DNA from: an uncultured Caldithrix sp.
GTDB taxonomy: Bacteria > Calditrichota > Calditrichia > Calditrichales > Calditrichaceae
Assembly: GCA_964532875.1 (NCBI GenBank)
Contig: CAZHIZ010000001.1
Coordinates: 12,100 to 76,099, forward strand
Reading direction: 5' to 3'
Length of the DNA: 64,000 nucleotides
Below the pieces are notes generated by a model that searched no databases, was not told the DNA's origin, and saw nothing but the letters and a program-made list of their open reading frames with translations. Below, piece by piece: positions 6,303-58,232 of the stretch (position 1 is the stretch's first letter; every line of letters starts with the position of its first letter). The translations under genes were made by a program, and so were the position numbers.

Positions 6303-6314
6303 CTTGCTTATGCG

Positions 6315-6387: not shown

Positions 6388-6438
6388 CTTTTATTTTAAG
6401 AGCCGTAAATTTAAGATAAAAATGAATGGAAATCAACC

Positions 6439-26021: not shown

Positions 26022-28940
26022 ATGATGAAGCCTTTATTCTATTTTATCCTTCCGCTTTTTTTTGTTGTATCCGTTTGGGCCCAGGTTCCAGGGAAAATAG
26101 TCGGTAGAGTTACGGATCAATCGAATAATCCTTTACCCGGGGTTAATGTTATTGTTGAGGGGCAGCCATTGGGAGCCAGCACCGATACGGACGGCTATTA
26201 CATGATTTTGAATATTGCGCCCGGGACGTATCGGCTGACGGCCAACTATGTGGGCTATCACCCAGTAACGGTTAAAGGCGTGGTTGTGCGGCCCGATTTG
26301 ACCACGCGGGTTGATTTTACGTTGCAAGAAGAAGTGATGGAGTTGGGGCAGGCGATTGTTGTTACGGCCGAACAGCCGGTCATTCAGCGGGACGCCACGG
26401 CCAAAGTAACGACTTTTAATGCGGAAGAAATCAAGTCGTTGCCAGTGGAGAATTTACAAGAAATTTTGTCCATTCAATCGGATGTTTCGGTTTTGACGAA
26501 TACGCCGAATGCCAAACCGGGTTACAATATTCGCGGCATTGATGACATCCGCATGCGTGGCGGGCGTAATAATGAAGTGGCTTTATTAATTGACGGGGTT
26601 AAGGTTTCCAACCCGGTTTTCGGCGGGTTCGGGACTCAAATAGGGAAAAATGCCATTGAGCAAATTTCGATTGAAGCGGGCGGGTTCAGTGCCAAATACG
26701 GCAATGCGCTATCCGGTGTGATTAATCTCACCACCAAGGAAGGGCGCGCAAAAACTTCCGGATCATTTCGCTATTACACTTCCCGGCCTTTCGGATTGCA
26801 GGCCTTGATTCCTGCGCATGGGCGTGCTTTAAATCGACAAAATTATCAATACACATTGGGCGGGCGTTTACCGTTCTTAAAGAAATCGAGTTACTTTATT
26901 TCCGGTGAGGTGAATACGCAACGCGGCACGGTTTTGTTGTTTGATCGTATTTTATGGAATGACCACCGCACCATCGGACTGGATTTAAATGGCGATCAAA
27001 TTGCCGATTCGACGGTAACATTACCCACGTCGCAGGAAATCATAAAAGGATATTTGCAATACGGTAATTTGGATTCCATTCAGCACGGATTGGCCCGCAA
27101 CTGGCGTAAGGTCATTGGTCCGGACGGTCGCAAGATTAATCCTTTGGATCGGTATGCCGGATGGACGGGCCTGGGCTGGAATAATTATTTAAATGTTTTT
27201 GCGAAGGTGAGCTATCAAATTACCCCATCATTGAAGATTCGGTTTTCTAATTTATGGGATCAACGTTACCGCCAGATCAATAATTTTAACGCCTGGTACG
27301 ATTACAATATGGCCGGGCAGAATGTGCAAATTTTAGGCAGCAATAAGCAAACACTTTCGATTAATCATGCCTTATCGGCTAAAACATTTTATGATTTTAA
27401 ATTATCCCGCTTTTTCGAATCACGAAAGATTCGCATTTTAAGAGATTACGATCGGAAATTTCGTTCGCGTTTTAATGTATTTTATCCTGATCCTAATAAT
27501 CTCAAAACGCCAGATGAGTACATACCTTATCGCAGTACGAAGGCGGTTATTGATCCGTTTGAGACGGCCTTTTATTTAAAGGCGGATAATCGCTGGTATT
27601 CGGGTGACCGGAGCACCAATTGGGAGGCGCGTCTGGATTTTACGTCGCAAATCAGCAAAGCGACTAAAATCGAGACGGGATTTCAATTCAATTATATCGA
27701 TTTGCATTATCATTCCTATCAAAATATCAGTCAAAAAGATCCGTTTCCTACTATTTACCATCGTCAGCCCAAAGAAGGAGCATTGTATTTACAGGGGAAG
27801 TCGGAATATGACAAGTTAATTCTGAATGTGGGTGTGCGTTTGGATTATCAGGATACCGGCGATCGGTTCTGGAAAAATCCTTTTGATCCGTTGGCCAAAC
27901 AAAGCGGACAGGATGATTCGTTAGAGATAAATCCTTTGATTCCGGTAAAGCCAAAATATCATGTTAGCCCGAGGATCGGTCTGGCTTATCCGCTGACTTC
28001 TACGACGGTTTTATTTTTTAATTTCGGGCATTTTTATCAAAATCCGAATTACCGTGATTTGTATCGGGCTACCGGTAATACGCGGTTGGTGAGTTTGATG
28101 CGCGGAAATATTTTGGGGAATCCCAATTTGCAACCGGAAAAGGCGGTGCAATATGAGATTAGCTTGCAACAGCAAATTGGCAGGGACATTGGGGTTAAAA
28201 TTAATTTGTGGTCTAAGGAAACGACGAATCAGGTAGGCTCGGTTGTCGTGCCGGCTTATTCCGATCCCGGGCGGGATAATCCGTTTACCTACGCGGTATT
28301 TGTGAATAATAATTTCGGATCGGCGCGGGGAATTGATATTGAGGTGAAGAAGGTTTTACGTAAAAATTTCGGTTTCCAGATCAATTACACCTATTCAAAA
28401 GCCAAGGTGCTTTTGCCCACGTCGTGGGATGGGTACTGGTCGGGAGATACCCAAGAAGATTTGCCGAAACATGAAACAACCGCACCCTGGGATCAACCCC
28501 ATGTGATGCGTGCCAATATGCAGTATTATTTTAATGGAAAGGAAGGCGTGCGCATCGGTCATGTTTACCCGTTGGAAAACACCGTTTGGAGTTTGATTTA
28601 CTACGGAGAGAGCGGAATGCCTTATACACCATCGATACCCGGCGGCGTAATTGTGGAACCGTATTCGGCACGATGGCCGGCCACCCATCGGGTGGATGTG
28701 CGCGTTTCGAAGCAATGGCGGTTGTGGAAACAACGGTTTCGGATGTTTTTTGAGATCAAAAATGTGTTTGATCGTAAGAACGTGCTAACCGGATACACGC
28801 GAACCGGCTCGGCGACCGATCCGGGAACAGCGGCCTACTACACCTATTCTTCGACGTATTGGGATTCGAGGAATAATAATAATTTTGGATTGAGACGTTT
28901 GTTTTATTTGGGGCTGGAAGTGATATTCGGAGGAAGATAG
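26022..28940 (+). CDS. TonB-dependent-receptor-like outer-membrane barrel with N-terminal CarboxypepD_reg domain (cassette 1)
   Basis: Signal peptide 'FFVVSVWAQ', then 'GKIVGRVTDQSNNPLPGVNVIVEG...TDTDGYYMILNIAPGTYRLTANYVGY' (carboxypeptidase-regulatory-like fold). Plug-like 'ISIEAGGFSAKYGNALSGVINLTTKEG' and a ~700-aa beta-rich region. Paralog of 51506..54352. Confidence 0.85.
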   Translation: MMKPLFYFILPLFFVVSVWAQVPGKIVGRVTDQSNNPLPGVNVIVEGQPLGASTDTDGYYMILNIAPGTYRLTANYVGYHPVTVKGVVVRPDLTTRVDFTLQEEVMELGQAIVVTAEQPVIQRDATAKVTTFNAEEIKSLPVENLQEILSIQSDVSVLTNTPNAKPGYNIRGIDDIRMRGGRNNEVALLIDGVKVSNPVFGGFGTQIGKNAIEQISIEAGGFSAKYGNALSGVINLTTKEGRAKTSGSFRYYTSRPFGLQALIPAHGRALNRQNYQYTLGGRLPFLKKSSYFISGEVNTQRGTVLLFDRILWNDHRTIGLDLNGDQIADSTVTLPTSQEIIKGYLQYGNLDSIQHGLARNWRKVIGPDGRKINPLDRYAGWTGLGWNNYLNVFAKVSYQITPSLKIRFSNLWDQRYRQINNFNAWYDYNMAGQNVQILGSNKQTLSINHALSAKTFYDFKLSRFFESRKIRILRDYDRKFRSRFNVFYPDPNNLKTPDEYIPYRSTKAVIDPFETAFYLKADNRWYSGDRSTNWEARLDFTSQISKATKIETGFQFNYIDLHYHSYQNISQKDPFPTIYHRQPKEGALYLQGKSEYDKLILNVGVRLDYQDTGDRFWKNPFDPLAKQSGQDDSLEINPLIPVKPKYHVSPRIGLAYPLTSTTVLFFNFGHFYQNPNYRDLYRATGNTRLVSLMRGNILGNPNLQPEKAVQYEISLQQQIGRDIGVKINLWSKETTNQVGSVVVPAYSDPGRDNPFTYAVFVNNNFGSARGIDIEVKKVLRKNFGFQINYTYSKAKVLLPTSWDGYWSGDTQEDLPKHETTAPWDQPHVMRANMQYYFNGKEGVRIGHVYPLENTVWSLIYYGESGMPYTPSIPGGVIVEPYSARWPATHRVDVRVSKQWRLWKQRFRMFFEIKNVFDRKNVLTGYTRTGSATDPGTAAYYTYSSTYWDSRNNNNFGLRRLFYLGLEVIFGGR

Positions 28941-28950
28941 CGCCCTATTT

Positions 28951-28983
28951 GGGCAAAAGAGGTGTAAGAGATGGGCAGCGCCC
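28951..28983. repeat. left inverted repeat GGGCAAAAGAGGTGTAAGAGATGGGCAGCGCCC
   Basis: Its reverse complement matches 29511..29543 at the outer 10 and inner 17 positions. Contains the small palindrome GGGCAGCGCCC. Confidence 0.8.
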
Positions 28984-29020
28984 TGATTTTTTTCACATAT
29001 AGAGAAGGAGAGAGAAAATC

Positions 29021-29473
29021 ATGGCCCAATCATTATCACAAATTTATTTACACATTATTTTTAGTACGGCAAACAGAGCCCCTTTTTTACATGAAACGAT
29101 TTGTAAAGACTTGTACGCCTATATGGCACAAATACTAAATAATAATAATTGTCATGCCTATTTGATTAACGGAACGGAGAATCACGTTCATATTGCCTGT
29201 AATTTATCCAGAACAATAACCGTGAGTCAGATTTTAGAGGAAGTAAAAAGGAGTTCTTCCAAGTGGATTAAAGGGAAAGGTAGGGAGTTTAAATCGTTTA
29301 GTTGGCAAAAAGGATACGGTGCCTTTTCTTTTGGCAGATCTCAATTGGATGACGTTTTAAAATATATTGAACATCAAGAAAGAATACACGAAAAGAAAAA
29401 TTTTAAAGATGAATATTTGGAATTTCTTAACAAATATGAAGTGGAGTATGATGAAAAATATTTGTGGGATTAA
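29021..29473 (+). CDS. IS200/IS605-family Y1 (HUH) transposase-like protein, RAYT type
   Basis: 'LSQIYLHIIFSTANRAPFL', HUH motif 'NHVHIACN', and the catalytic-Tyr block 'WQKGYGAFSF'; 150 aa. SD GAAGGAGAG upstream. Confidence 0.88.
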   Translation: MAQSLSQIYLHIIFSTANRAPFLHETICKDLYAYMAQILNNNNCHAYLINGTENHVHIACNLSRTITVSQILEEVKRSSSKWIKGKGREFKSFSWQKGYGAFSFGRSQLDDVLKYIEHQERIHEKKNFKDEYLEFLNKYEVEYDEKYLWD

Positions 29474-29492
29474 GGTAAATCCAGTTTGGAAT

Positions 29493-32400
29493 ATGGTGCG
29501 ATCTATTCAAGGGCGCTGCCCATCTCTCTTTTCTCTTTTGCCCCGCTGGGGCGCGCTGTTCCTCATTTTTAATTTTATTCTCCTCTTCACCTTCTTCGCC
29601 CCAACTTCTCTCTTCTCCAGTCCTCCTCACGAACAAAATCGCCACAGCCGCTCTTTCCTGGCCAAACCGGCCTCTGTCTTTGATCGCGCCACCGGCTTTA
29701 TGGATGCCGGTAAAATGAAGGTCATGGGTGTGGAAAATTTCGGTCTTCTCTGTGGATGGGACCACCCCGGTTACCAGAGTTGGTATCCCGGTGCTTTTCA
29801 CGGTGATTGGGGCGAAGTCCGCTGGATTGCACCGGTTATTCTCATGCCCAAAGGCCCCTGGGGGGCCAGGCACACCAATGGCCCGGATCTGCCCGAAGAC
29901 CGTAGCGACCAATACAATGCCATCGAATCCTTTTCAGCCATCCATCTGCACGATGGAGACGGCCCGAATTTTACGGATTGGGAAGCCTTGGACGGCAGTG
30001 CCGAACATTATCACGGAACGCTAACGCAAGATAACATCCCGGTTATTGCCACCAGCACCTTGCCCAACTCCTGGCCCGAAGGCTATTACGATAAAAACGA
30101 CCATTGGGTCTCTACGCCCGGTGAGCATCATTGGCCCGGGCATTGGGCCCTCGATCCGGACGAAAGTTCCCCCACCTACGGCAAACCCTTACCCGGGGAA
30201 TTCGTATCCAATCAGGATATCTTTTTCATTGCCAGCGATAAATACAACGGAATACGTCCCGGTGCCGTGACCGCACGTTACGGTTACCCTGTGGGCATCG
30301 ATATGGAAGTTAGTGGCTACAGTTATTCTACACCCTTGTACGAAAATGTGGTGTTCTTTAATATTAATTTTATTTTTCGCACCAAAGAACAACTGACCGA
30401 CCCCAACAGTCGCTTTTATGATCCCAATCGTCATTTCTACGACGGGACCATCGACAGTGTGTATTTCGCCTTCTTTGTGGATCCCGATCTGCCGGGCCGC
30501 TACTTGGTCCCCGGCTCCAATTACCGTCAGGCCACGCCCTGGGCCGAAGACGATTACGGATTGATTTACGATTATGATGGCGATGGCAAAATCGATGTCT
30601 TTTTGGCCTTTGACAAAAAGGATTATTTTCAGGATCAGGTTTACCCCCAAAACGCAGGCCCCGTTTCCGCCTACGGAATCAATTTTTTCCGAACTCCCCT
30701 GGTTAATCCGTCCGACCCGAACAGTCCCGAATTGGGCATTACCGGCTTCCACTGGTTCGATCAGGACGAAGCCATGCGACCGTCAAAAATAAATGCGCAA
30801 TGGGAAAAAACACTTTACGCCCTTTCCGCTGGTAAACCGCAACTCATGCCTCCGACCGAACGCCCCAAGTGGTTCCACGGAGATAATCCCAATCAGGACG
30901 ATGTCTCTCTGCTAAAAGATTATCAGGAATCCTTCCCCGTGGGCAGTCGACCCGATATTCAGTTCTGGTTTAGTTCCGGTCCCTTCTCCATTTCTCCCGG
31001 CGACACCATCCCCATTCACATTGGCATCGTAGGAGCCACTCCAGACCCGGGACCCTTGGATGCCGAAGGATTTCCCACCAATCCGCCGGACGTTCGTTTT
31101 GCCTCCGTGTTCGAAGCCTTGCGCCAGGCCGATAGCCTGTACAAAAACAATTTCATCGGATTCCGGCCGCCCAAAGCGCCCACATTAAATGCCGTGGGCA
31201 CCAAAGTCATCGATAAATACGATTTGCCCGTTGTTTACGGAGAAAACGGTAAAGTAACCTTGTATTGGGACGACAAGGCGGAAAAGTCATTCGAAATCAT
31301 TACCCGCGAATACGATTTTGAAGGCTACCGCATCTATCGTACGCAGGCCGCAGTGGAAGGTCAGGGCCAGCCCGATTGGGGAACACCCATTTACGATTAT
31401 TCCGGTAAAAACATCGTCGGATATCAACCCTTGGCTCAATATGATTTAATCGACCAATGGCAGGGGCCGGATCCTCTCAATCCCTTTTTTAATTTGGGTA
31501 AAAATAGCGGCTTACATTACACATTTGTCGATCGTAACGTCATCAACGGTGTGCGCTACCGTTACACCATCACCGCCTATGATCATCCCAATTTAAAGGC
31601 GGGGCAGCCCGCTCTGGAATCCTCTCGCGGCAACGATCCGCGACTCATTCAGACCGTCGACGTCATTCCGGGCCTGCAACCGCAGGGATTCGTCGGAGGA
31701 AGTGTCGATTCCAATGTGGTTCATCTCTCGGGAAACGCCACCGGTTACATCTTTGTGCAACCAATCGATCCCATGAATGTTAGCGGGCATACCTATCGCG
31801 TAACGTTTAAAGATTCCTTAACCGCACTTAAACTTGATATTTATGATGAAGATGCACAAAAATATCTGTTTACCGACTACGACAATATCTGGCAGGAAGC
31901 CGATTTACCCATCGCCCAACCACGTCCCATTTTTGATGGTATCGGACTTAAGATCATTAATCACAATGTGGTTGAAGAATTAAATCAAGGCTGGCAAAAA
32001 GTTACCGCCGATACTTCAACCTATCGGTTCGGGGTCTTGACCAAAACCGCGGATAACATCACCGCTCCCTACGACTATGCGCTTGTTTTCGGAGATTCCA
32101 CTTCCAAGTTTGCCGCTTCCGGCAACGCCGCCTACGTTCCCTTTCAGGTCTTTAACATCACCAAAGACCCGCAAATGAAGCATCCGTTGAAATTGTTCGT
32201 ACGCAATCCGGCGCTCCCCTGGCAAAGCGGCGATTTTATCTATTTCCTCGAACCGGATGTTCATCATAAAACCTGGACAATCACCATCGAATGGGATGCC
32301 GGAGCCAAAGCCCCCAATCCCGGCGATATCTATGTGTACCGCACCAAAAAACCGTTTAAGCAAGGCGATGTTTACGAAATACGTACCAATGCCTATTATA

Positions 32401-32729
32401 ATGATACCAAACACATCGACTTAAGCGCTGTTAAAGTCGTACCGAATCCGTACATGGTGTACAATTTGGCCGAACAGGCCTCCACGCATCCCGACCGATT
32501 TACGCACGAACTGCGATTTACCCATCTGCCGCCTAAATGTACCATTAAAATTTACACGGTCAAGGGCGATTTGGTTAAAACGATTCGGCACAATGCCCCC
32601 ACCATTGGGGAAGAACGTTGGAATTTGCAATCCGATGAAAATCTCGAAGTGTCTTACGGCGTGTATGTGTACACCGTAAAAACACCGGACGGTAAGAAAA
32701 AAATAGGCAAATTTGCCATTATTTGGTAA
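29493..32729 (+). CDS. large secreted FN3-containing protein with divergent T9SS-type C-terminal domain (cassette 1, middle gene)
   Basis: Paralog of 54374..57160, sharing blocks 'YDFEGY.IY', 'PLAQYD.ID', 'NVINGV.Y.Y..TAYD', 'PNPY.V' and the tail 'GKFAII'. Start set to the first ATG after the RAYT stop. The ORF-track start at 29367 would overlap the transposase gene by 107 nt. Confidence 0.75.
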   Translation: MVRSIQGRCPSLFSLLPRWGALFLIFNFILLFTFFAPTSLFSSPPHEQNRHSRSFLAKPASVFDRATGFMDAGKMKVMGVENFGLLCGWDHPGYQSWYPGAFHGDWGEVRWIAPVILMPKGPWGARHTNGPDLPEDRSDQYNAIESFSAIHLHDGDGPNFTDWEALDGSAEHYHGTLTQDNIPVIATSTLPNSWPEGYYDKNDHWVSTPGEHHWPGHWALDPDESSPTYGKPLPGEFVSNQDIFFIASDKYNGIRPGAVTARYGYPVGIDMEVSGYSYSTPLYENVVFFNINFIFRTKEQLTDPNSRFYDPNRHFYDGTIDSVYFAFFVDPDLPGRYLVPGSNYRQATPWAEDDYGLIYDYDGDGKIDVFLAFDKKDYFQDQVYPQNAGPVSAYGINFFRTPLVNPSDPNSPELGITGFHWFDQDEAMRPSKINAQWEKTLYALSAGKPQLMPPTERPKWFHGDNPNQDDVSLLKDYQESFPVGSRPDIQFWFSSGPFSISPGDTIPIHIGIVGATPDPGPLDAEGFPTNPPDVRFASVFEALRQADSLYKNNFIGFRPPKAPTLNAVGTKVIDKYDLPVVYGENGKVTLYWDDKAEKSFEIITREYDFEGYRIYRTQAAVEGQGQPDWGTPIYDYSGKNIVGYQPLAQYDLIDQWQGPDPLNPFFNLGKNSGLHYTFVDRNVINGVRYRYTITAYDHPNLKAGQPALESSRGNDPRLIQTVDVIPGLQPQGFVGGSVDSNVVHLSGNATGYIFVQPIDPMNVSGHTYRVTFKDSLTALKLDIYDEDAQKYLFTDYDNIWQEADLPIAQPRPIFDGIGLKIINHNVVEELNQGWQKVTADTSTYRFGVLTKTADNITAPYDYALVFGDSTSKFAASGNAAYVPFQVFNITKDPQMKHPLKLFVRNPALPWQSGDFIYFLEPDVHHKTWTITIEWDAGAKAPNPGDIYVYRTKKPFKQGDVYEIRTNAYYNDTKHIDLSAVKVVPNPYMVYNLAEQASTHPDRFTHELRFTHLPPKCTIKIYTVKGDLVKTIRHNAPTIGEERWNLQSDENLEVSYGVYVYTVKTPDGKKKIGKFAIIW
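29511..29543. repeat. right inverted repeat GGGCGCTGCCCATCTCTCTTTTCTCTTTTGCCC
   Basis: Partner of 28951..28983. Lies inside the first codons of the downstream cassette gene. Confidence 0.8.
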
Positions 32730-32764
32730 GACCTGAAAATCTGTTCATGTTAAAAGGACAGCAA

Positions 32765-33835
32765 ATGAAAAAGAAATTGATATTAAAACGATTGGCCTTC
32801 GGGCAACGGACTAAATTTGTGTTAATGTTATTAATTGGAGGGATGCTTTGTCATGGCGCCATGGCCGGAGAGTTAACCAAGGTGGGCACGACAGCGGCCA
32901 ATTTTCTCCAGTTGCGTGTCGGGGCCCGCGCCATTGCCTTGGGCGGCGCCTTTGTAGGGCTGGCCGATGATGCCAGTGCCCTCTACTGGAATGCCGCCGG
33001 TATCACCCACCTAACCGGTTTGCAGGTTTTTTATCAAAACAGCAGGCTTTACGCAGGATTAAAACACCAGACGTTCGGTTTAACGTACGCCCTCACTGCC
33101 CAGAATCATCTGGGAATTTTAGTCAATCATTTGGATATGGGCGTCATGCGGCAAACCACTTTGCAGTATCCGGAAGGGACAACCCAAAAGTTCGATGCGG
33201 CCTCCATGGCACTGGGCCTGACCTATGCCCGTCAATTAACCGATCGGGTCTCTTTCGGAGTAACGGCCAAGTACATTCAGGAACGCATCTGGCTGGAAGT
33301 GGCGCGCGGTTATGCCTTTGATATTGCCACCCTGTATGTCATCCCGGAAAAGGGACTGCGCATCGGAATGAATTTAAGTAATCTCGGCCCGGATATGGGC
33401 ATCGGCAAGGCACCCCATCTGGAATTTTACAAACGGAAACCGGATGATTTCCCGGGTAGCCCCCAACCGAAATCCCAGCTTGCCACCAAAGAATTCCCAT
33501 TGCCCTTGGCTTTCTCTCTTGGTCTCGCTTTGGATATTTGGGGACAAAATGCCCTGTTGTTTCCAAATGAAGAACATCGGCTTACAACTTCAATGAGTAT
33601 TACCGACGGTTACGACAGCCCGTTACGGACAAATTTTGGTCTGGAATATGTTTGGCACGAAGTGTTTGCCCTGAGAGCGGGCTACTACCTGGGGTACGAT
33701 ACCGAAAACTACGCTCTGGGTTTCGGATTGAATATTTACAAATACGCAAAAATCAATTTGCAAATCGATTATGCCTGGATGAATTACGGCGATTTGGGCA
33801 GCATTAACACCTATGCTTTGCAATTTAGATTTTAA
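32765..33835 (+). CDS. PorV/PorQ-family outer-membrane beta-barrel (cassette 1)
   Basis: 'GELTKVGTTAANFLQLRVGARAIALGGAFVGLADDASALYWNAAGITHL' is the hallmark N-terminal block of PorV/PorQ-type barrels. The protein ends in an aromatic residue '..YALQFRF'. Start at MKKKLILK (AAGGA upstream). Confidence 0.75.
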   Translation: MKKKLILKRLAFGQRTKFVLMLLIGGMLCHGAMAGELTKVGTTAANFLQLRVGARAIALGGAFVGLADDASALYWNAAGITHLTGLQVFYQNSRLYAGLKHQTFGLTYALTAQNHLGILVNHLDMGVMRQTTLQYPEGTTQKFDAASMALGLTYARQLTDRVSFGVTAKYIQERIWLEVARGYAFDIATLYVIPEKGLRIGMNLSNLGPDMGIGKAPHLEFYKRKPDDFPGSPQPKSQLATKEFPLPLAFSLGLALDIWGQNALLFPNEEHRLTTSMSITDGYDSPLRTNFGLEYVWHEVFALRAGYYLGYDTENYALGFGLNIYKYAKINLQIDYAWMNYGDLGSINTYALQFRF

Positions 33836-33892: not shown

Positions 33893-35638
33893 ATGCACAT
33901 TGTTAGCGCAAAAAACGAATATCCCGAAGTAACCTGGCAAGCTATCGTGGTGGGGGTATTTATCGGTTTGCTCATGACCGTGAGTTTTTCTTACGCCGCT
34001 TTGGTGCTCGGATTTTCCACCAATGGTTCGCCGGTTGCCGCCATTTTGGGCTGGGGCATCATGCGCTCGCTTTTTAAGCGCGGAACTATTGTGGAAAATA
34101 ATATCATTCAGACCATTGCTTCCGGTATTAATACGGCCACGGCCGGAGTCATTTTTACGGTTCCCATATTGCTCATCCGCGGAGCTCCTTTTAATGTCTG
34201 GTGGGTGGGTGCCGCCACGGTGGCCGGGGCCATTTTAGGGGTTGGCTTCATCATCCCTATCCGTAAACAGATGATTGATATCGATCGTTTGCGTTTTCCC
34301 TCCGGTACGGCCATTGCTTCCATTTTACGTTCACCGGCCGAAGGCATGAAAAAATCCCGTTTACTCATCTATGGAGCCTTACTCTCGGCAACGGTTTACG
34401 TAATCACCCAATTCCCGCGGCTCGGCTTACCGATTCTGATCCCTTCTTCCATCGATTTGGGCCGGTTGCTGCATTTGCCCTCGTACATCAATAATGTCTG
34501 GGCCGTTTCTTTGCTGAGTCTGGGCATCGGTTTTATTGCCGGACGTAACGGCCTGTTCGTCCTGGCCGGAGGTATTTTAGCCTATTGGTTTATTACGCCT
34601 TTTATGATTCATTTGGCCTGGGTACCGCCGGAATTAAGCGGCACGCAAATCACCTCTTTTATTCATAGTAAAATGACCCGGCCCCTTGGCATCGGCATGT
34701 TGATCGGCGGATCGTTGATTAGCATCGTGTTAACCCTGCCGGCTATTAAAGCCACACTGAAAAGTTTCAACTTAAAAAAAATTAAAAATGAAACATACGA
34801 CGAGTTGTCTATTAAAATTTTGTACACCGTTATTCTGGCCGCTTTTATTCTGTTCTTTTTAGCTGCCTATTTTACCTCTTCCATCGGTATTGTGGCCGCT
34901 TTAATTGTTTCTTTAGTGGGCACACTCTGGCTTTGGTTTGCCGGCATCATCGTTTCGCAAGCTACGGGCATGACCGATTGGACACCCATCAGCGGCATGT
35001 CGTTGTTAGCCGTGGCCATTTTAATGCTGTTTTTGCCTTCCGATCAAGTGGTTACGGCTGTCTTGATCGGGGCGGCCGTTTCGGTGGCCATTGCCGAATG
35101 CGCCGATATGATGCAGGACTTGAAGACCGGCTACCTGGTGGGCAGTCGTCCTTATCGCCAGCAGGCTTTACAACTGATGGTAGCCTGGATCGGGCCGGTG
35201 GTTTCCATTGCCGTGATGCTCCTCATCTGGAATAGCGGCGGTACCGATCCCTTAACCGGCCATAAATTACCGGGATTCGGTCCGGGTACCGATATCGAAG
35301 CACCGCAGGCCGTGGCTCTGGGCGCTACCATCGATAGCGTCATCAAAGGCAACGTACCCGTGCAAAAATATTTGGCCGGGGGCATTCTGGGCGCCTTGCT
35401 CTCTTTTTCGGGAATTCCCGGTTTGGGAGTTATCATGGGAATCGCCATGTACCTGTCCATTAAATACATTTTACCTTACGGATTGGGCAGCCTAATCTAT
35501 TTGCTTGTGGCATGGAAATTTGGCAAAGAGTGGGCCGAAAAATGGGGCGTGCCCTTTGCGGCCGGACTCATTGTCGGCGAAGCATTACTCATTATTACTT
35601 TTGCCATGTTAACGGTTAGCGGAGTGATTGCAGGATGA
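33893..35638 (+). CDS. OPT-family oligopeptide transporter
   Basis: 581-aa polytopic membrane protein with an OPT-superfamily-like N-terminus ('TWQAIVVGVFIGLLMTVSFSYAALVLGFS.NGSPVAAILGW') and 'DLKTGYLVGS'. Confidence 0.8.
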   Translation: MHIVSAKNEYPEVTWQAIVVGVFIGLLMTVSFSYAALVLGFSTNGSPVAAILGWGIMRSLFKRGTIVENNIIQTIASGINTATAGVIFTVPILLIRGAPFNVWWVGAATVAGAILGVGFIIPIRKQMIDIDRLRFPSGTAIASILRSPAEGMKKSRLLIYGALLSATVYVITQFPRLGLPILIPSSIDLGRLLHLPSYINNVWAVSLLSLGIGFIAGRNGLFVLAGGILAYWFITPFMIHLAWVPPELSGTQITSFIHSKMTRPLGIGMLIGGSLISIVLTLPAIKATLKSFNLKKIKNETYDELSIKILYTVILAAFILFFLAAYFTSSIGIVAALIVSLVGTLWLWFAGIIVSQATGMTDWTPISGMSLLAVAILMLFLPSDQVVTAVLIGAAVSVAIAECADMMQDLKTGYLVGSRPYRQQALQLMVAWIGPVVSIAVMLLIWNSGGTDPLTGHKLPGFGPGTDIEAPQAVALGATIDSVIKGNVPVQKYLAGGILGALLSFSGIPGLGVIMGIAMYLSIKYILPYGLGSLIYLLVAWKFGKEWAEKWGVPFAAGLIVGEALLIITFAMLTVSGVIAG

Positions 35639-36192: not shown

Positions 36193-36206
36193 AAACGGGA
36201 TGTGCC

Positions 36207-40147: not shown

Positions 40148-40157
40148 AGGAGAGCGC

Positions 40158-42158: not shown

Positions 42159-42209
42159 AATGAGTAACAGATAAAAGGCTTTAACAACCTTAAAAAAGGA
42201 GGGTAATCA

Positions 42210-44531: not shown

Positions 44532-44543
44532 AAAAGAAAAAAG

Positions 44544-44612
44544 GGTCATTGCATGAAACGCCATGACGCGCGCTGGGGGGCTTGCGAAACAAAGCGTTTT
44601 TTTGCAATGACC
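44544..44612 (+). terminator. long imperfect hairpin (outer stem GGTCATTGCA/TGCAATGACC, inner AAACGC/GCGTTT)
   Basis: Nested inverted repeats 13 nt after the stop of 42210..44531. An internal T-run (gcgttttttt) precedes the outer closing arm. It could be a terminator or a REP-like element. Confidence 0.4.
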
Positions 44613-44668
44613 TCCTTTAAATTAAACAAAATTTTATTAAAGTGAAATGTTTAAGTAAAGGAGAAAAG

Positions 44669-49688: not shown

Positions 49689-51392
49689 ATGAGGGGTTTA
49701 TTTACTATCCTAACTATCTTGTTTTTTACTTTCTGTCTGACGGCTTCGTTGCAGGCGCAGGATCCGGATTACGTGGCCGACGGGTACAGCAAAGTATTGA
49801 CGATCAACAAGTTCGAGAATGCCACGCATTGGCCGATTGTAGCTGACGAAGTTCATGCCGGATTCGATTTGGACAAAGACGGCAATCAGGAATTTATCGT
49901 TTTGGCCGACAATTCCGATCCCAACGGCCCGACCGGTGCCGGTTGGGAAGATGGACACTCTATTTTCGTCTATGAATGGAATCCCACCAGCAGTCAGTAT
50001 GAACTCATGTGGTCATGGGCCGACACGTCATTAAAGACGGGCGGTGCCAGTTTCCCCACGATGGCCGTAACCGATTTGGATGGTGACGGTAACCAGGAAA
50101 TCACACTGGGTATGCCCAGTGGTTCCGGATGGCCTGCACCCGATGTAAGCCCGACGGTTTTCTATGTCTTCGAATTTGGAGATGAAGGTTTGCCCACCGA
50201 GCCTACTGCCACCTGGACGGCAGAAACTGGGCCCGGTTCCAATACGCGTCCTTCGGCCATGGCAGCTGCCGATATTGACGGTGACGGACAGGAAGAAGTG
50301 GCCGTAGCTTTTCGTAAATTCAGCGATGCCGGTACGAACGACGCTTTAATGATCTTCTCGCTGGATGGGGAGTTCATGGGCGATTTTACCCAGTTCAAGA
50401 TCGAGATGATCGACACGACCGGTGACTGGGGCAGTGTGTATGCTGCTGACATTACGGACTTGGACAATGACGGCAATTTGGAAGCCTATTTTTCCACGGA
50501 TTACCACACCATTTATGAAGCGACCGGCCCCGATTCTTACAAATTGTATTACGAAGAAAAACCCAAATACGGTCCCTGGACGATTCAGGCCACGGCTCAA
50601 TGGGATATTGATGGCGACGGTACCAATGAACTTGTTTTCGGAAAAACAAACGGTTCGTTGTGCATTTTGCACGGAATCAAAGATTTGGCCAACATCGACT
50701 CCACCAACGAAGCATTAATCAAGGAAGTGGAACCCGGTGGTTGCCGCGGGTTAACCGTTGGCGATTATGACGGTGACGGCAAGACCGATATTTTTATGGG
50801 CGGCAATTATGCGGGTAGTGTATGGCGCATCAAATACAAAGGTGGCGATATTACCGATTCCTCCAGCTATTCGTTTGAAAAGGTCTTCCAGGACACTACA
50901 CCCAGCGGCGGTGCACGTGTTTATTCGGTTTCATTTCCCGGTGACTATCTTTCCACCAAAGAAGGCGGCAGCAAGGTTAACGACATGAATAAAAACGGTC
51001 AGCCGGAATTGTTGATTGCCTACGAAGACGGCGATTCTCTGCAAAATTGGATTGTCATGCTCGAAGGTAACGGCGTAACGGGTATTGAATTGAATCCTGG
51101 TGAACAGGTTTTGAATACCTACACCTTGAATCAAAATTATCCCAACCCGTTCAACCCCACGACGGCCATTTCTTTTACCATTCCCAAGGCCCAACATATT
51201 TCTCTGAAGATTTACAACATGCTCGGTCAGGAAGTGAAGACCTTGGTTGATGACGATTTGAATCCCGGAAGCTATTCCAAAGTTTGGGACGGCACCAATA
51301 ATATGGGACAGAATGTGCCCAGCGGGGTTTATGTGTATACCTTGCAAGCCGGTCAGCATAAACTGAGTAAAAAGATGACGCTGATACGCTAA
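49689..51392 (+). CDS. FG-GAP/VCBS-repeat beta-propeller protein with T9SS CTD
   Basis: Repeated Ca-binding-like loops 'DLDKDGNQE', 'DLDGDGNQE', 'DIDGDGQEE', 'DLDNDGNLE', 'DIDGDGTNE', 'DYDGDGKTD'. CTD 'NYPNPFNPTT...LKIYNMLGQEV...GVYVYTL...KKMTLIR'. AGGAGG SD. Confidence 0.85.
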   Translation: MRGLFTILTILFFTFCLTASLQAQDPDYVADGYSKVLTINKFENATHWPIVADEVHAGFDLDKDGNQEFIVLADNSDPNGPTGAGWEDGHSIFVYEWNPTSSQYELMWSWADTSLKTGGASFPTMAVTDLDGDGNQEITLGMPSGSGWPAPDVSPTVFYVFEFGDEGLPTEPTATWTAETGPGSNTRPSAMAAADIDGDGQEEVAVAFRKFSDAGTNDALMIFSLDGEFMGDFTQFKIEMIDTTGDWGSVYAADITDLDNDGNLEAYFSTDYHTIYEATGPDSYKLYYEEKPKYGPWTIQATAQWDIDGDGTNELVFGKTNGSLCILHGIKDLANIDSTNEALIKEVEPGGCRGLTVGDYDGDGKTDIFMGGNYAGSVWRIKYKGGDITDSSSYSFEKVFQDTTPSGGARVYSVSFPGDYLSTKEGGSKVNDMNKNGQPELLIAYEDGDSLQNWIVMLEGNGVTGIELNPGEQVLNTYTLNQNYPNPFNPTTAISFTIPKAQHISLKIYNMLGQEVKTLVDDDLNPGSYSKVWDGTNNMGQNVPSGVYVYTLQAGQHKLSKKMTLIR

Positions 51393-51406
51393 GCGTAACT
51401 CTGGAG

Positions 51407-51437
51407 AAAAAAGGGAGATTTTTTCTCCCTTTTTTTT
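51407..51437 (+). terminator. rho-independent terminator
   Basis: AAAGGGAGA/TCTCCCTTT stem followed by an 8-nt T-run. Confidence 0.8.
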
Positions 51438-54352: not shown

Positions 54353-54373
54353 CAGCTTTGGTGGAGGAAAATC

Positions 54374-57160: not shown

Positions 57161-57173
57161 ACGGAGCATGATC

Positions 57174-58187
57174 ATGAGAACAATACATTTGATTTTTATT
57201 CTTCTGTTGAGCATTGCACTCGGGTCTGCCGGTGAAATTACCAAAAAAGGTACCAGCGCCGCCCAATTTTTGAAGATCGGTGTCGGTGCTCGGGCAACGG
57301 CCATGGGCGAAAGTTTCGTGGCCGAAGCCAACGATGCCTCGGCGGTCTATTGGAATCCGGCCGGTCTGGCTCATTTGACGCGTAATGAATTGTTGCTGGT
57401 GCGTACCAATTGGATCGCCGGTATGACCTACGATTTCGCCACGGTTACCATACCGATGCAGTCAATCGGAACGTTCGGGCTATTCTACCAGGCCTTGAAT
57501 ATGGGCGAGATGAAAGTCCGCACGGAATATCAGCCGGACGGTACGGGCGAATTGTTTGATGCCAGTAGCTTTTCCCTTGGACTGAGTTATGCCCGAACCA
57601 TGACCGACCGATTCGCTTTCGGTCTTACGGCCAAATACATTCGGGAGCAAATTTGGCACGAGTCCGCTGCTACCATGGCTATTGATTTGGGCATTACCTA
57701 CCGAACTTCCATTAAAAATTTGCGTCTGGGAATGGCTATTTTAAACTACGGCGGAAAAATGCAAATGAACGGCAAAGATCTGCTCACCTTTGTGGATGTG
57801 GATCCTAATTTAAAGGGAAATAACGAGTACATCGTCTCCCGTTTGAATACCGAAAAATTCGATATTCCTCTGAACTTTCGTATCGGCCTGGCTTATGATC
57901 CGATTAAAACCGATTTTTCGCGGGTAACGATTACCATGGACGGCGTTTCACCTAATGATTTTAACGAATATTTGAACGTGGGCATGGAATATGCCTTCCG
58001 CAACATGGTCTTTTTACGCACCGGTTTCAAAGGGATTGGAATTCACAATGCCGAAGGCGGTTTTTCGGCTGGTGCCGGTATTAAATACAAAATGACCGGC
58101 CAATTGGGTTTGGTCATCGATTACGCCTATGTGGATTTCGGGCGTTTGAATAATGTTCAACGTTTTTCCCTGCGTATCTTGTTCTAA
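57174..58187 (+). CDS. PorV/PorQ-family outer-membrane beta-barrel (cassette 2)
   Basis: 'GEITKKGTSAAQFLKIGVGARATAMGESFVAEANDASAVYWNPAGLAHL'; ends '..FSLRILF'. The ATG at 57174 has better SD spacing than the ORF-track 57168. Confidence 0.78.
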   Translation: MRTIHLIFILLLSIALGSAGEITKKGTSAAQFLKIGVGARATAMGESFVAEANDASAVYWNPAGLAHLTRNELLLVRTNWIAGMTYDFATVTIPMQSIGTFGLFYQALNMGEMKVRTEYQPDGTGELFDASSFSLGLSYARTMTDRFAFGLTAKYIREQIWHESAATMAIDLGITYRTSIKNLRLGMAILNYGGKMQMNGKDLLTFVDVDPNLKGNNEYIVSRLNTEKFDIPLNFRIGLAYDPIKTDFSRVTITMDGVSPNDFNEYLNVGMEYAFRNMVFLRTGFKGIGIHNAEGGFSAGAGIKYKMTGQLGLVIDYAYVDFGRLNNVQRFSLRILF

Positions 58188-58199
58188 TCTTTTGCCTCC

Positions 58200-58232
58200 G
58201 GGGCTGTCTGATCGGGCAGCCCCTTCTCTTTT
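58200..58232 (+). terminator. rho-independent terminator after cassette 2
   Basis: GGGGCTG/CAGCCCC stem followed by TTCTCTTTT, 13 nt after the stop. Confidence 0.65.

What the first reader, a model, noticed from the sequence alone, without database searches (positions are those of the whole stretch)
26022..33835. Three-gene outer-membrane cassette, copy 1: TonB-receptor-like barrel / ~1,000-aa FN3+CTD protein / PorV-PorQ-like barrel
**Seen in sequence**
- Gene order and protein-level paralogy match 51506-58187.
- The receptors share 'GKIVGRVTD..G.PL..[AV]N[IV][IV][IV].G.PLGA.TD.DGYY.ILN..PG.Y.L.A.YVGY'.
- The middle proteins share 'YDFEGY.IY', 'PLAQYD.ID', 'LGKN[ST]GL', 'NVINGV.Y.Y..TAYD', 'PNPY.V' and the tail 'CTI.IYT..G.L..T..H...YG.YVY.V....GKFAII'.
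- The third proteins share 'GE.TK.GT.AA.FL...VGARA.A.G..FV..A.DASA.YWN.AG..HL'.

**Established knowledge**
- That last block is typical of PorV/PorQ-family T9SS barrels.
- In Porphyromonas the CTD-retaining proteins PorU and PorZ are held at the surface by PorV and PorQ.

**Inference**
- Each cassette may encode a self-contained surface complex. The large CTD protein would dock on its private PorV/PorQ-like barrel beside a SusC-like TonB-dependent transporter.
- That would be a SusD-independent, T9SS-anchored capture/uptake unit.
- I do not recall this trio being described as a unit, and I cannot check that without databases.
Basis: partly seen in the sequence, partly recalled or inferred. Interest (0 to 1): 0.8.

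Follow-up and report, generated by a model that had tools for sequence, protein, structure and literature searches.

The report
TonB receptor with PorV-anchored surface partner
Two copies of a three-gene outer-membrane module (a TonB-dependent receptor, an unannotated ~1,000-residue surface protein with an unusual type IX secretion tail, and its own PorV-like barrel) sit in this Calditrichota genome; the same trio is conserved in order across many related phyla and seems undescribed, so it may be how these bacteria build nutrient-capture complexes without SusD-type lipoproteins.

Summary
Cassette 1 (26022-33835) and cassette 2 (51506-58187) are paralogous: receptors 29% identical (E 2e-101), middle proteins 31% (E 9e-66), barrels 36% (E 1e-64).

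- **Gene 1** is a TonB-dependent receptor with a CarboxypepD_reg N-domain. It is not SusC/RagA.
- **Gene 3** passes the NCBIfam PorV/PorQ family model. Its model superposes best on solved PorV (TM 0.72; FadL about 0.52).
- **Gene 2** belongs to a family with no Pfam or NCBIfam model and more than 2,300 homologues. It is all-beta and ends in a CTD-like beta-sandwich.

In 79 genome loci from about ten FCB-type phyla, 68/68 middle genes follow a receptor and 64/66 precede the barrel. An FG-GAP+CTD gene is usually adjacent.

The tail is a conserved variant CTD (VVPNPY…GRGERR…CTIRIYT…GKFAIIK) that fails the type A models. Four relatives with a canonical type A tail have no barrel beside them, and none shows a receptor.

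My best reading (confidence about 0.5) is a type IX-exported capture protein held on a private PorV-like barrel, serving the receptor. Docking, uptake and substrate are all inferred. I found no description of the trio in the literature. I rate it a new variant of known kinds.

The parts
26022..28940 (+). TBDR1: TonB-dependent receptor, 972 aa. It has a signal peptide, a CarboxypepD_reg domain (26-102), a TonB-box-like 'AIVVTAEQP', a Plug (122-233) and a beta-barrel (411-915).
   Evidence: Pfam hits are all above their cut-offs. The SusC/RagA model TIGR04056 scores 102.9 bits against a cut-off of 368. It is 29% identical to TBDR2.
28930..29564 (+). IS200/Y1-transposase-like (RAYT-like) gene at 29021-29473, with flanking 55-nt inverted repeats at 28930-28984 and 29510-29564. 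It lies between TBDR1 and MID1. It is a passenger, not part of the conserved trio.
   Evidence: Y1_Tnp scores 3.7e-24. The inverted repeat is, and its 15-mer core is unique to these two sites in the window. The same gene and palindromes sit at the same place in a related Caldithrix MAG, about 80% nt identical. They are absent from the more distant orthologous locus L085.
29490..32729 (+). MID1: about 1,079-aa secreted all-beta protein. The start is uncertain: the ORF is open from 29367, and the candidates are ATG 29490 and TTG 29535. It ends in the variant CTD '…VVPNPYMV…HELRFTHLPPKCTIKIYT…YGVYVYTV…GKFAIIW'.
   Evidence: Translation is. There is no Pfam hit. Only weak C-terminal hits appear: PorU, PorZ and TIGR04183 (14.6 bits against a cut-off of 23). 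It is homologous to MID2 over the full length. It has its own orthologue group at 40-85% identity.
32765..33835 (+). BAR1: PorV/PorQ-family 14-strand outer-membrane barrel, about 356 aa. The ORF is open from 32723, and an alternative start is at 32747.
   Evidence: NF033709 PorV_fam scores 177.2 bits against a cut-off of 90. It falls below the PorV, PorQ and PorV2 equivalog cut-offs. It is 36% identical to BAR2.
33893..35638 (+). OPT-family oligopeptide transporter, 57 bp downstream of BAR1 with no terminator-like hairpin between them. It is the likely inner-membrane step for cassette 1 in this lineage, but it is not conserved family-wide.
   Evidence: Pfam OPT scores 3.7e-60. It is present in L084 and absent in L085.
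49689..51392 (+). FG-GAP beta-propeller protein with a canonical type A CTD. It is a frequent fourth gene of the module.
   Evidence: Pfam gives FG-GAP_3 at 7e-21 and Por_Secre_tail at 31 bits. TIGR04183 scores 40 bits. Full-length homologues lie next to the trio in about 40 of about 60 loci with enough flank.
51506..54352 (+). TBDR2: TonB-dependent receptor, 948 aa, with the same architecture as TBDR1.
   Evidence: Pfam and NCBIfam results are. In the PDB sequence search only the plug region matches (CirA, YncD, PqqU, FepA-type receptors), plus the N-domain to carboxypeptidase D; no SusC-like chain matches.
54374..57160 (+). MID2: 928-aa secreted protein.
- Signal peptide, with 'AYA|Q' at about residues 24-25.
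- Conserved N-terminal beta-supersandwich, about 68-435.
- FN3-like domain, about 436-585.
- Two variable beta-sandwiches, about 586-815.
- Variant CTD, about 816-928, with a disordered insertion at 832-853.
   Evidence: The AlphaFold2 model has pLDDT 79.4. The conservation profile over 73 homologues is. The exact protein is in public data, and Caldithrix abyssi Calab_3298 is 63% identical.
57168..58187 (+). BAR2: PorV/PorQ-family barrel, 339 aa, with 14 strands and an N-terminal plug.
   Evidence: NF033709 scores 225 bits against a cut-off of 90. The AF2 model has pLDDT 91.1. Foldseek gives F. johnsoniae PorV 8gl6_F at E 2e-15 and TM 0.72, and 6h3i_F at TM 0.71. FadL scores about 0.52 and BamG 0.47-0.50.
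51403..51428 (+). Terminator-like hairpin between the FG-GAP gene and TBDR2.
   Evidence: 10-pair stem followed by a T run.
58200..58223 (+). Terminator-like hairpin 13 nt after the BAR2 stop codon. It bounds a three-gene transcription unit.
   Evidence: 10 pairs, 7 of them G-C, followed by a T-rich tail.

Best explanation
Each cassette encodes a three-protein outer-membrane nutrient-acquisition unit.

**Proposed mechanism**
1. The middle protein (MID) is exported by Sec. This step rests on a cleavable signal peptide with no lipobox, read directly from the sequence.
2. MID crosses the outer membrane by the type IX secretion system, using its C-terminal beta-sandwich. This is inferred.
3. The tail is not removed and replaced by a glycolipid anchor. 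It stays bound to the extracellular face of the barrel encoded immediately downstream (BAR, PorV/PorQ family). This is inferred by analogy with PorU-PorV, PorZ-PorQ, and type B CTD substrates with their PorP/SprF shuttles.
4. MID is thereby tethered at the surface. It presents its conserved N-terminal supersandwich and FN3 domains, plus two variable beta-sandwich domains, to capture a ligand.
5. The co-transcribed TonB-dependent receptor imports that ligand. This is also inferred.

**Accessory parts and substrate**
- The FG-GAP propeller protein with an ordinary CTD, often encoded alongside, is probably a further surface accessory.
- In this lineage the substrate of cassette 1 is most likely peptides. 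The cassette heads a conserved co-directional cluster with an OPT peptide transporter, an M20 peptidase and a CTD-bearing C10 protease.
- Across the whole family the substrate is not defined.
For: **Parts identified**
- The receptor is identified.
- The barrel is PorV-like by curated model and by fold.
- The tail is a CTD-like sandwich.

**The trio is an obligate unit**
- Among 79 genome loci from Calditrichota, Fidelibacterota/Marinimicrobia, Zixibacteria, KSB1, WOR-3, Stahlbacteria, Kryptonia, Ignavibacteriales and Bacteroidota (Rhodothermales, Chitinophagales, Cytophagia), 68/68 MID genes follow a receptor.
- 64/66 precede a barrel. The two exceptions are a frameshift split and an extra MID copy.
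- The same order appears in independent look-ups.
- The intergenic gaps in cassette 2 are 21 and 7 bp, and the cassette is bounded by terminator-like hairpins.
- All parts are co-inherited: pairwise-distance correlations are 0.75-0.92.

**The tail is special and tracks the barrel**
- It is among the most conserved parts of MID across phyla, on a par with the N-terminal and FN3-like domains.
- It carries an insertion between the first two strands.
- It fails the type A models, which ordinary CTDs in the same window pass at 36-44 bits.
- Four MID relatives with a canonical 'NYPNPFN…KM.LLK' tail have no barrel beside them, and none shows a receptor; for one (P0458) the upstream flank is cut by the contig end.

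**Other support**
- The window encodes at least five ordinary CTD cargo proteins, so a type IX system is presumably present.
- Precedent for retained tails and cognate barrels: PMC10202324, PMC12618676.
- Peptide theme for cassette 1: OPT, M20 and C10+CTD are conserved in L084, and M20 and C10+CTD also in L085. M20 follows the cassette-2 orthologue in Caldithrix abyssi.
Against: - There is no direct evidence for any protein-protein contact, for surface exposure or for transport.
- The tail's weak similarity to the PorU and PorZ tails is not specific. Two of four ordinary CTDs in the window also hit PorU, and one of four hits PorZ.
- Partial correlations of evolutionary distances gave no tail-barrel-specific signal, about 0. 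That test is confounded by the short length of the tail.
- Beyond the trio and the FG-GAP gene, neighbourhoods are heterogeneous: 123 Pfam families among 101 flanking ORFs. Substrate cannot therefore be read from context across the family.
- The N-domain is strongly conserved. This is unlike the diversifying SusD-type binders and could instead indicate an enzymatic or structural role.
- The presence of the type IX core machinery in each lineage was not checked.
Confidence: 0.5

Rival explanations
1. BAR is only a dedicated secretion shuttle for MID, like the PorP/SprF proteins for type B substrates. It collects MID from the translocon and hands it on. MID is then released, or attached in another way, and there is no stable MID-BAR-receptor complex. 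The receptor is linked only functionally, importing what MID binds or produces.
For: - Cognate shuttles encoded next to their substrates are established for type B CTDs (PMC12618676).
- PorV itself is a shuttle (PMC5562754 title; 8gl6 is the top Foldseek hit).
- The synteny and the tail-barrel co-occurrence fit this reading equally well.
Against: - The tail lacks the features that ordinary cleaved type A tails share.
- It is far more conserved than a mere export tag needs to be.
- A signal-peptide protein with no lipobox needs some anchor if it is to serve a receptor at the surface.
Confidence: 0.2
2. The module is not a nutrient importer. The trio, with the FG-GAP protein, would be a structural, adhesive or envelope-biogenesis complex in which the receptor-like barrel serves as a platform. 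This would be comparable to the Bacteroidota BAM, where the FadL-like BamG holds surface proteins.
For: - The N-domain and FN3 of MID are highly conserved across phyla, unlike typical substrate binders.
- Wider neighbourhoods lack a consistent catabolic theme.
- No riboswitch or obvious nutrient regulator lies upstream.
- There is a BamG precedent for a FadL-type barrel holding surface proteins (PMC12578637).
Against: - The receptor keeps a complete Plug domain and a TonB-box-like segment (sequence read directly), which are the hallmarks of active import.
- BAR is closer to PorV (TM 0.72) than to BamG (0.47-0.50), and the BamG model scores 23.7 bits against a cut-off of 250.
- Several paralogous cassettes per genome, and tandem arrays, are typical of uptake systems.
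- Cassette 1 sits with a peptide transporter and peptidases.
Confidence: 0.12
3. BAR anchors a different protein, for example the neighbouring FG-GAP propeller + CTD protein (a PorZ-PorQ-like pair). MID would instead bind the receptor directly as a lid, with its tail serving only for export.
For: - BAR's best equivalog-level hit is PorQ (84-102 bits).
- PorZ is a propeller + CTD protein held by PorQ (PMC10202324).
- The FG-GAP protein's tail hits the PorU and PorZ models more strongly than MID's tail does.
- The FG-GAP gene is adjacent in about two thirds of loci.
Against: - MID-BAR adjacency is essentially invariant (64/66).
- The FG-GAP gene is missing from a third of loci, including cassette 1 here.
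- Its orientation varies.
- MID relatives with ordinary tails lack BAR.
Confidence: 0.08
4. BAR is a working FadL-type channel for a hydrophobic or amphipathic compound that MID binds or releases. The cassette would then have two import routes, and the CTD-like tail would be incidental.
For: - BAR2 nearly reaches the Pfam Toluene_X cut-off (28.2 bits against 29.7).
- It has the FadL-type 14-strand barrel with an N-terminal plug.
Against: - It is structurally and by curated model nearer to PorV than to FadL, TodX or TbuX.
- BAR co-occurs with the variant tail.
Confidence: 0.05

Closest known systems
PorU-PorV and PorZ-PorQ pairs of the type IX attachment complex (Porphyromonas gingivalis)
   Same: - A large secreted protein keeps its C-terminal beta-sandwich and is held at the surface by a PorV/PorQ-family 14-strand barrel (PMC10202324).
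- From my own knowledge, porU and porV are neighbouring genes, as MID and BAR are here.
- BAR passes the PorV/PorQ family model and superposes on PorV.
   Different: - MID is not PorU or PorZ. Only about 70-95 C-terminal residues match, at 19-20 bits against cut-offs of 420 and 260. Its body is all-beta with no peptidase domain.
- BAR is below the PorV, PorQ and PorV2 equivalog cut-offs.
- The pair comes in several copies per genome.
- The pair is always preceded by a TonB-dependent receptor.
Type B CTD substrates with cognate PorP/SprF shuttle proteins (Flavobacterium johnsoniae, e.g. SprB-SprF)
   Same: - A non-standard secretion tail is genetically linked to a private outer-membrane barrel that determines the substrate's fate (PMC12618676).
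- The barrel gene lies next to the substrate gene.
   Different: - The tail here is a variant of type A, not type B. No member matched the type B model TIGR04131.
- The barrel belongs to the PorV/PorQ family, not PorP/SprF.
- A receptor is part of the unit.
[quoted passage not shown] A type A-like tail with its own barrel would be an exception.
SusC/SusD-type transporter-lid pairs, and other TonB-dependent transporter + surface lipoprotein complexes of Bacteroidota (e.g. BtuB-BtuG)
   Same: - A TonB-dependent barrel with a CarboxypepD_reg-type N-domain is co-encoded with a large surface protein presumed to capture substrate.
- Several paralogous loci occur per genome.
   Different: - The receptor fails the SusC/RagA model (85-103 bits against a cut-off of 368).
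- There is no SusD-like gene.
- The partner is not a lipoprotein, as it has no lipobox.
- Its predicted anchor is a separate barrel.
- The module is found mainly outside Bacteroidota.
IhtA-IhtB of P. gingivalis (TonB-dependent receptor plus a surface partner)
   Same: - A receptor is co-transcribed with a surface-exposed accessory protein that processes the ligand (PMC12094164).
- From my own knowledge, IhtB is a type IX CTD cargo.
   Different: - IhtB is small and CbiK-like. From my own knowledge, it is anchored by the general glycolipid route after tail removal.
- There is no private barrel.
- There is no sequence relationship to MID.
BamG-BamH of the Bacteroidota BAM complex
   Same: A FadL-type 14-strand barrel serves as a platform for a surface protein (PMC12578637).
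   Different: - BAR scores 23.7 bits against a cut-off of 250 on the BamG model.
- It superposes worse on BamG (TM 0.47-0.50) than on PorV (0.72).
- BamH is a lipoprotein.

Membership tests
TonB-dependent receptor | Plug domain and 22-strand barrel domain above the curated Pfam cut-offs | tested here: met
   Plug scores 51.9 and 44.2 bits against a cut-off of 23.9. TonB_dep_Rec_b-barrel scores 96.9 and 84.8 bits against a cut-off of 27.
TonB-dependent receptor | TonB box N-terminal to the plug | tested here: inconclusive
   'AIVVTAEQP' (TBDR1) and 'ETIVTVAERP' (TBDR2) lie between the CarboxypepD_reg domain and the Plug. They were read from the alignment. No scoring model was applied.
SusC/RagA family (TIGR04056) | Whole-protein score at or above the curated cut-off of 368.25 bits | tested here: not met
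   Scores are 102.9 and 84.9 bits, and the best-scoring stretch covers only the N-terminal 220-250 residues. No SusC-like chain appeared in the PDB sequence search.
SusC/RagA family (TIGR04056) | Adjacent SusD-family lipoprotein gene | tested here: not met
   The downstream gene (MID) has no SusD or other Pfam match. It has a signal peptide with no lipobox.
PorV/PorQ family (NF033709) | Score at or above the curated cut-off of 90 bits | tested here: met
   BAR1 scores 177.2 bits and BAR2 scores 225 bits, both over the full length of the profile.
PorV/PorQ family (NF033709) | 14-strand FadL-type barrel closest in structure to PorV | tested here: met
   The AF2 model has pLDDT 91.1 and 14 strands. 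PorV chains 8gl6_F and 6h3i_F rank first and second at TM 0.71-0.72, against about 0.52 for FadL.
PorV (NF033710), PorQ (NF033711), PorV2 (NF052325) equivalogs | Score at or above the equivalog cut-offs of 250, 220 and 325 bits | tested here: not met
   - PorV: 67 and 82 bits.
- PorQ: 84 and 102 bits.
- PorV2: 67 and 90 bits.

BAR is therefore a separate subfamily.
T9SS type A CTD (TIGR04183 / PF18962) | Score at or above the curated cut-offs (23 bits / 27 bits) | tested here: not met
   - MID1 scores 14.6 bits on TIGR04183, and MID2 has no hit.
- 0 of 51 family tails hit PF18962 at E<=0.01.
- 18 of 51 hit TIGR04183, all weakly.
- Ordinary CTDs in the same window score 36-44 bits.
T9SS type A CTD (TIGR04183 / PF18962) | Seven-strand Ig-like beta-sandwich at the extreme C-terminus, with a 'PNP' start and a basic residue near the end | tested here: met
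   - The AF2 model has strands at 827-830, 856-859, 864-871, 876-883, 891-893, 906-913 and 919-926, with pLDDT of about 80-90.
- 'VVPNPY' and the terminal 'GKFAIIK' are conserved.
- A 15-25-residue insertion follows the first strand.
T9SS type A CTD (TIGR04183 / PF18962) | Dependence of export on the type IX machinery | not testable with these tools
   This needs genetics or proteomics in a cultured member such as Caldithrix abyssi.
T9SS type B CTD (TIGR04131) with PorP/SprF partner | Tail matches the type B model and the neighbouring barrel is PorP/SprF | tested here: not met
   TIGR04131 is not among the families hit by any of the 51 tails. No PorP/SprF model is among the BAR hits at E<=0.1.
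PorU sortase (NF033707) / PorZ (NF052228) | Full-length match above the cut-offs (420 / 260 bits) | tested here: not met
   Scores are 19.7 and 18.6 bits, covering only the last about 70-95 residues. In the PDB the only match is the PorU tail of 6za2, at E 0.12.
BamG (NF053685) | Score at or above 250 bits | tested here: not met
   BAR2 scores 23.7 bits. TM to the BamG chains 9hiv_F, 9hjm_F and 9n2d_B is 0.46-0.50.

The most novel reading that the evidence does not exclude
The MID tail may define a third class of type IX sorting domain. It would be a type A-derived sandwich with a conserved insertion (VVPNPY…E…GRGERR…LP..CTIRIYT…GKFAIIK) that is never cleaved and serves as a dedicated plug-in anchor for its own PorV/PorQ-family barrel.

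The resulting receptor-MID-barrel machine, often with an FG-GAP propeller, would be the widespread, lipoprotein-independent counterpart of SusCD-type capture complexes across the FCB-type phyla. It might even predate them.
Probability: 0.3. Interest if true: 0.85.

Novelty: new variant of a known kind. Interest (0 to 1): 0.66.

Why it matters
- **Anchoring outside Bacteroidota.** TonB-dependent transporters with surface-exposed partners are central to how Bacteroidota feed. How the many related, mostly uncultured phyla (Calditrichota, Marinimicrobia/Fidelibacterota, Zixibacteria, KSB1, Ignavibacteria and others) equip their receptors is largely unknown. These phyla matter in sediments and the deep ocean. 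The trio would give them a defined, recognisable module.
- **Unannotated protein families.** It would attach a role to a family of over 2,300 'hypothetical' proteins of about 1,000 residues. It would do the same for a large share of the proteins now labelled only 'PorV/PorQ family protein' (over 3,000 homologues of BAR2).
- **Type IX secretion.** It would extend the 'cognate shuttle' principle from type B tails to a type A-derived tail. It also offers a natural comparison set for finding what specifies tail-barrel recognition, because the same protein family occurs with an ordinary tail and no barrel.
- **Testability.** Caldithrix abyssi is cultured and carries the cassette (Calab_3298 and its neighbours), so the predictions can be tested.

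Tried and rejected
1. **Modelling the tail-barrel complex as a fused chain with a paired alignment.**
   - Using whole database proteins as unpaired rows made MAFFT misalign the chimeric query. MID C-terminal halves were forced onto barrel columns.
   - I abandoned this, so no complex model exists.
2. **'PorU/PorZ-like tail' as evidence for retention.** 40/51 and 35/51 family tails hit the PorZ and PorU C-termini. The control showed that ordinary CTDs in the window do too, so I do not count it.
3. **Mirror-tree partial correlations.** These showed co-inheritance of all parts but no tail-barrel-specific term. The result is inconclusive because the tail is short and the long receptor acts as the best proxy for the shared history.
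4. **Reading the substrate from gene neighbourhoods.**
   - The immediate downstream genes hint at peptide or cell-wall-fragment metabolism: M20, M14, M28, M55, Amidase_2, SpoIID, NlpC/P60 and SBP_bac_5, each in only 1-2 loci.
   - The wider flanks are heterogeneous.
   - Only for the cassette-1 lineage is a peptide theme conserved.
5. **Riboswitch or other RNA upstream.** None was found.
6. **Function of the MID body.**
   - There is no Pfam or NCBIfam family.
   - Foldseek relates the N-domain only to the non-catalytic N-terminal supersandwich of GH94/GH116/GH149/GH161 enzymes, at low TM of 0.15-0.2.
   - The N-domain occurs nearly always at the N-terminus of this one protein family.
7. **The idea of two MID subtypes with unrelated N-termini.** I rejected this because profile comparison shows homology over the full length. 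Many members only carry an Asp-rich insertion.
8. **MID as a divergent PorU, or BAR as BamG or FadL.** I rejected both on model scores and fold.

Full report
**1. The observation**

Both cassettes exist as described.
- Cassette 1: receptor 26022-28940 (972 aa), middle protein with ORF open from 29367 to 32729, and barrel 32723-33835.
- Cassette 2: receptor 51506-54352 (948 aa), middle protein 54374-57160 (928 aa), and barrel 57168-58187 (339 aa).

The three pairs are clear paralogues.
- Receptors: 29% identity over the full length, E 2e-101.
- Middle proteins: 31% identity over the C-terminal 600 residues, E 9e-66.
- Barrels: 36% identity, E 1e-64.

Two corrections apply to cassette 1.
- A 150-aa IS200/Y1-transposase-like ORF (29021-29473, Pfam 3.7e-24) lies between the receptor and the middle gene. 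It is flanked by 55-nt inverted repeats at 28930-28984 and 29510-29564.
- The middle gene therefore probably starts at ATG 29490 or TTG 29535. The barrel probably starts at 32747 or 32765.

**2. What the three genes are**

*Gene 1* has CarboxypepD_reg, Plug and TonB-dependent barrel domains, all above the Pfam cut-offs.
- It is not a SusC/RagA protein. TIGR04056 gives 103 and 85 bits against a cut-off of 368, and the best-scoring stretch covers only the N-terminal part.
- Against solved structures, only the plug matches receptors such as CirA, YncD, PqqU and FepA-type; the only other hit is the N-domain to carboxypeptidase D.

*Gene 3* passes NCBIfam's PorV/PorQ family model (177 and 225 bits against a cut-off of 90).
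- It stays far below the PorV, PorQ and PorV2 equivalog cut-offs.
- An AlphaFold2 model of BAR2 (pLDDT 91.1) is a 14-strand barrel with an N-terminal plug.
- The best structural matches are the PorV chains of the Flavobacterium translocon: 8gl6_F at E 2e-15 and TM 0.72, and 6h3i_F at TM 0.71.
- These rank ahead of FadL and TodX (about 0.52) and BamG (0.47-0.50).

*Gene 2* (MID) matches no Pfam or NCBIfam family in its body. The MID2 model (pLDDT 79.4) shows these regions.

| Residues | Region |
|---|---|
| 1 to about 24 | Signal peptide, with no lipobox |
| about 68-435 | Large beta-supersandwich |
| about 436-585 | FN3-like domain |
| about 586-815 | Two further beta-sandwiches |
| about 816-928 | Seven-strand C-terminal sandwich, with a disordered loop at 832-853 after the first strand |

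- Foldseek relates the N-domain only to the non-catalytic N-terminal sandwich of GH94/GH116/GH149/GH161 enzymes (probability 1.0 but TM 0.15-0.2). It lists PorZ second.
- A search of 1.84 billion representatives with the N-domain alone finds 818 clusters. Nearly all of those listed carry the domain at the N-terminus, and most are 900-1,600 residues long, the shorter ones probably being fragments. The domain therefore appears specific to this family.
- MID1 and MID2 are homologous over their whole length.
- Many members differ only by an Asp-rich insertion.

**3. The trio is a conserved unit**

MID2 has more than 2,300 homologues, all labelled 'hypothetical'.
- The exact protein is in public data, and Caldithrix abyssi Calab_3298 is 63% identical. 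The window is therefore Calditrichota.
- A scan of one genome per GTDB species returned 79 loci. They come from Calditrichota, Fidelibacterota/Marinimicrobia, Zixibacteria, KSB1, WOR-3, Stahlbacteria, Kryptonia, Ignavibacteriales, and Bacteroidota (Rhodothermales, Chitinophagales, Cytophagia).

I searched the ORFs of these loci with the window proteins.
- 68 of 68 MID genes with room upstream follow a receptor on the same strand.
- 64 of 66 with room downstream precede a barrel.
- The two exceptions are a frameshift-split MID and an extra MID copy in front of a complete trio.
- Independent look-ups with precomputed Pfam calls agree. These cover C. abyssi, a Fidelibacterota chromosome, Zixibacteria and Stahlbacteria.

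Cassette 1 has its own orthologue group at 40-85% identity, with the same trio.

Further features of the unit:
- Tandem cassettes are common in Marinimicrobia.
- A full-length homologue of the FG-GAP propeller + canonical-CTD protein (49689-51392 here) lies next to the trio in roughly two thirds of loci, in either orientation.
- In cassette 2 the gaps between genes are 21 and 7 bp. Terminator-like hairpins lie just before the receptor gene (51403-51428) and 13 nt after the barrel gene (58200-58223).
- Pairwise distances of all parts correlate at 0.75-0.92 across 54 complete trios. The parts are therefore inherited together.

**4. The tail**

Across phyla the MID tail is strikingly conserved: VVPNPY..E…GRGERRI.F..LP..CTIRIYT..GELV.T..H…G.E.WNLL..D…AYG.YIYHVDAPG.GEK.GKFAIIK.
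- The conservation profile gives N-domain 0.58, FN3 0.62 and tail 0.61.
- The two middle sandwiches score 0.38-0.41.

The tail fails the curated type A models.
- 0 of 51 tails hit PF18962, and only 18 of 51 hit TIGR04183, weakly.
- Four ordinary CTDs in the same window score 36-44 bits.
- Most tails weakly match the C-termini of PorZ (40/51) and PorU (35/51).
- The only PDB sequence hit of the family profile is the PorU tail (6za2, E 0.12).
- The control shows that ordinary CTDs can also hit PorU and PorZ. I do not count this as evidence for retention.

The most informative result is a natural comparison.
- Four MID relatives carry a canonical tail (NYPNPFN…G.YFYR…KM.LLK; P0101, P0456, P0458, P0459).
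- None of the four has a barrel next to it, and none shows a receptor. For P0458 the upstream side is cut by the contig end.
- The variant tail, the private barrel and the receptor therefore go together.

**5. Mechanism**

What is shown:
- the identities of the three parts;
- their obligate linkage and co-inheritance;
- the CTD-like fold and special sequence of the tail;
- its co-occurrence with the barrel;
- the presence of ordinary type IX cargo in the window.

What is inferred: MID is exported through Sec and the type IX system, and its uncleaved tail stays bound to BAR. This follows the pattern described for PorU-PorV and PorZ-PorQ (PMC10202324) and for type B tails with cognate PorP/SprF shuttles (PMC12618676). 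The tethered MID would then capture a ligand for the receptor.

For cassette 1 the ligand is probably peptides.
- The cassette heads a co-directional cluster of OPT transporter, HTH regulator, M20 peptidase, an FGE-sulfatase-domain protein, a C10 protease with CTD, and further CTD proteins.
- This cluster is conserved at 85% MID identity. All but OPT is also conserved at 51% MID identity.

Across the whole family the flanks are heterogeneous, and no riboswitch is present. Substrate is therefore open.

I put about 0.5 on the anchored-capture model. The main rival, at 0.2, is a transient-shuttle version of the same idea. Smaller weights go to a non-uptake structural role, to BAR holding the FG-GAP protein instead, and to BAR acting as a FadL-type channel.

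**6. What I could not do**

- The permitted unpaired version was wrecked by misalignment.
- The partial-correlation test found no tail-barrel-specific signal. That test is weak for a 113-residue domain.
- Whether every trio-bearing lineage has the type IX core genes was not checked.

**7. Comparison with what is known, and novelty**

Each ingredient has precedent:
- TonB-dependent receptors with surface partners (SusCD, BtuBG, IhtAB);
- retained tails on PorV/PorQ barrels;
- cognate shuttles for type B tails;
- a FadL-type barrel holding surface proteins in the Bacteroidota BAM (PMC12578637).

What appears new:
- the combination and its fixed gene order;
- the unannotated MID family;
- the variant type A-derived tail tied to a private PorV/PorQ-family barrel;
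- the breadth of its distribution, mostly outside Bacteroidota.

Full-text searches combining PorV or PorQ, TonB-dependent receptors and the relevant phyla found no description. A recent paper states that type A tails are all handled by PorV (PMC12618676). I therefore rate it a new variant of known kinds, of real interest to people working on type IX secretion and on outer-membrane uptake. The mechanism is still inferential.

Noticed in passing
window 28930-29564: An IS200/Y1-transposase-like gene (29021-29473) is bracketed by 55-nt inverted repeats, between the receptor and middle genes of cassette 1. The gene and its palindromes sit at the same spot in a related Caldithrix MAG (L084) at about 80% nt identity. 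It is therefore an old, vertically inherited resident (RAYT-like) rather than a fresh insertion. The downstream repeat overlaps the start of MID1.
   Followed up: partly
window 19651-20739 and 20751-21839 (- strand): Two tandem genes encode 100% identical 362-aa lipoprotein-like Laminin_G_3 (concanavalin-like) proteins. This is either a very recent tandem duplication or an assembly artefact.
   Followed up: partly
window 33893-47491: A co-directional, tightly packed cluster lies downstream of cassette 1: OPT transporter, a 185-aa unknown, an HTH protein, M20 peptidase, a 666-aa protein with a C-terminal FGE-sulfatase domain, C10 protease+CTD, BNR+CTD and SusE-like+CTD. Most of this array follows the orthologous trio in L084 and L085. 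FGE-sulfatase is also the fold of the type IX ring proteins PorK/GldK. The role of this copy is unknown.
   Followed up: partly
window 49689-51392; loci L005-L083: An FG-GAP beta-propeller protein with a canonical type A CTD accompanies the trio in about two thirds of loci, upstream in either orientation or downstream. It may be a fourth component.
   Followed up: partly
L086-L089 (KSB1 and a metagenome contig): Relatives of the middle protein carry an ordinary type A tail. They stand without a barrel or a visible receptor, next to BNR/sortilin-type CTD proteins. They are useful natural controls for tail-barrel specificity.
   Followed up: yes
L037/L003 (Zixibacteria) 4870-6597; L044 3-3053: Some loci carry an extra MID-related gene. 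In Zixibacteria a 563-aa CTD-bearing protein lies between the receptor and MID. In a Bacteroidota MAG a MID-like gene lies in front of a complete trio.
   Followed up: no
alignment A9, columns after 'GWLG.KFLESP': Many family members carry an insertion in the N-domain, rich in DxDxDG-type Asp repeats and resembling calcium-binding repeats. MID2 lacks it.
   Followed up: no
window 58353-59921 and 61722-63938: A transglutaminase-core protein follows cassette 2, after the terminator-like hairpin. A NorB-type nitric-oxide reductase with a fused cytochrome c-like domain lies on the minus strand near the end of the window.
   Followed up: no
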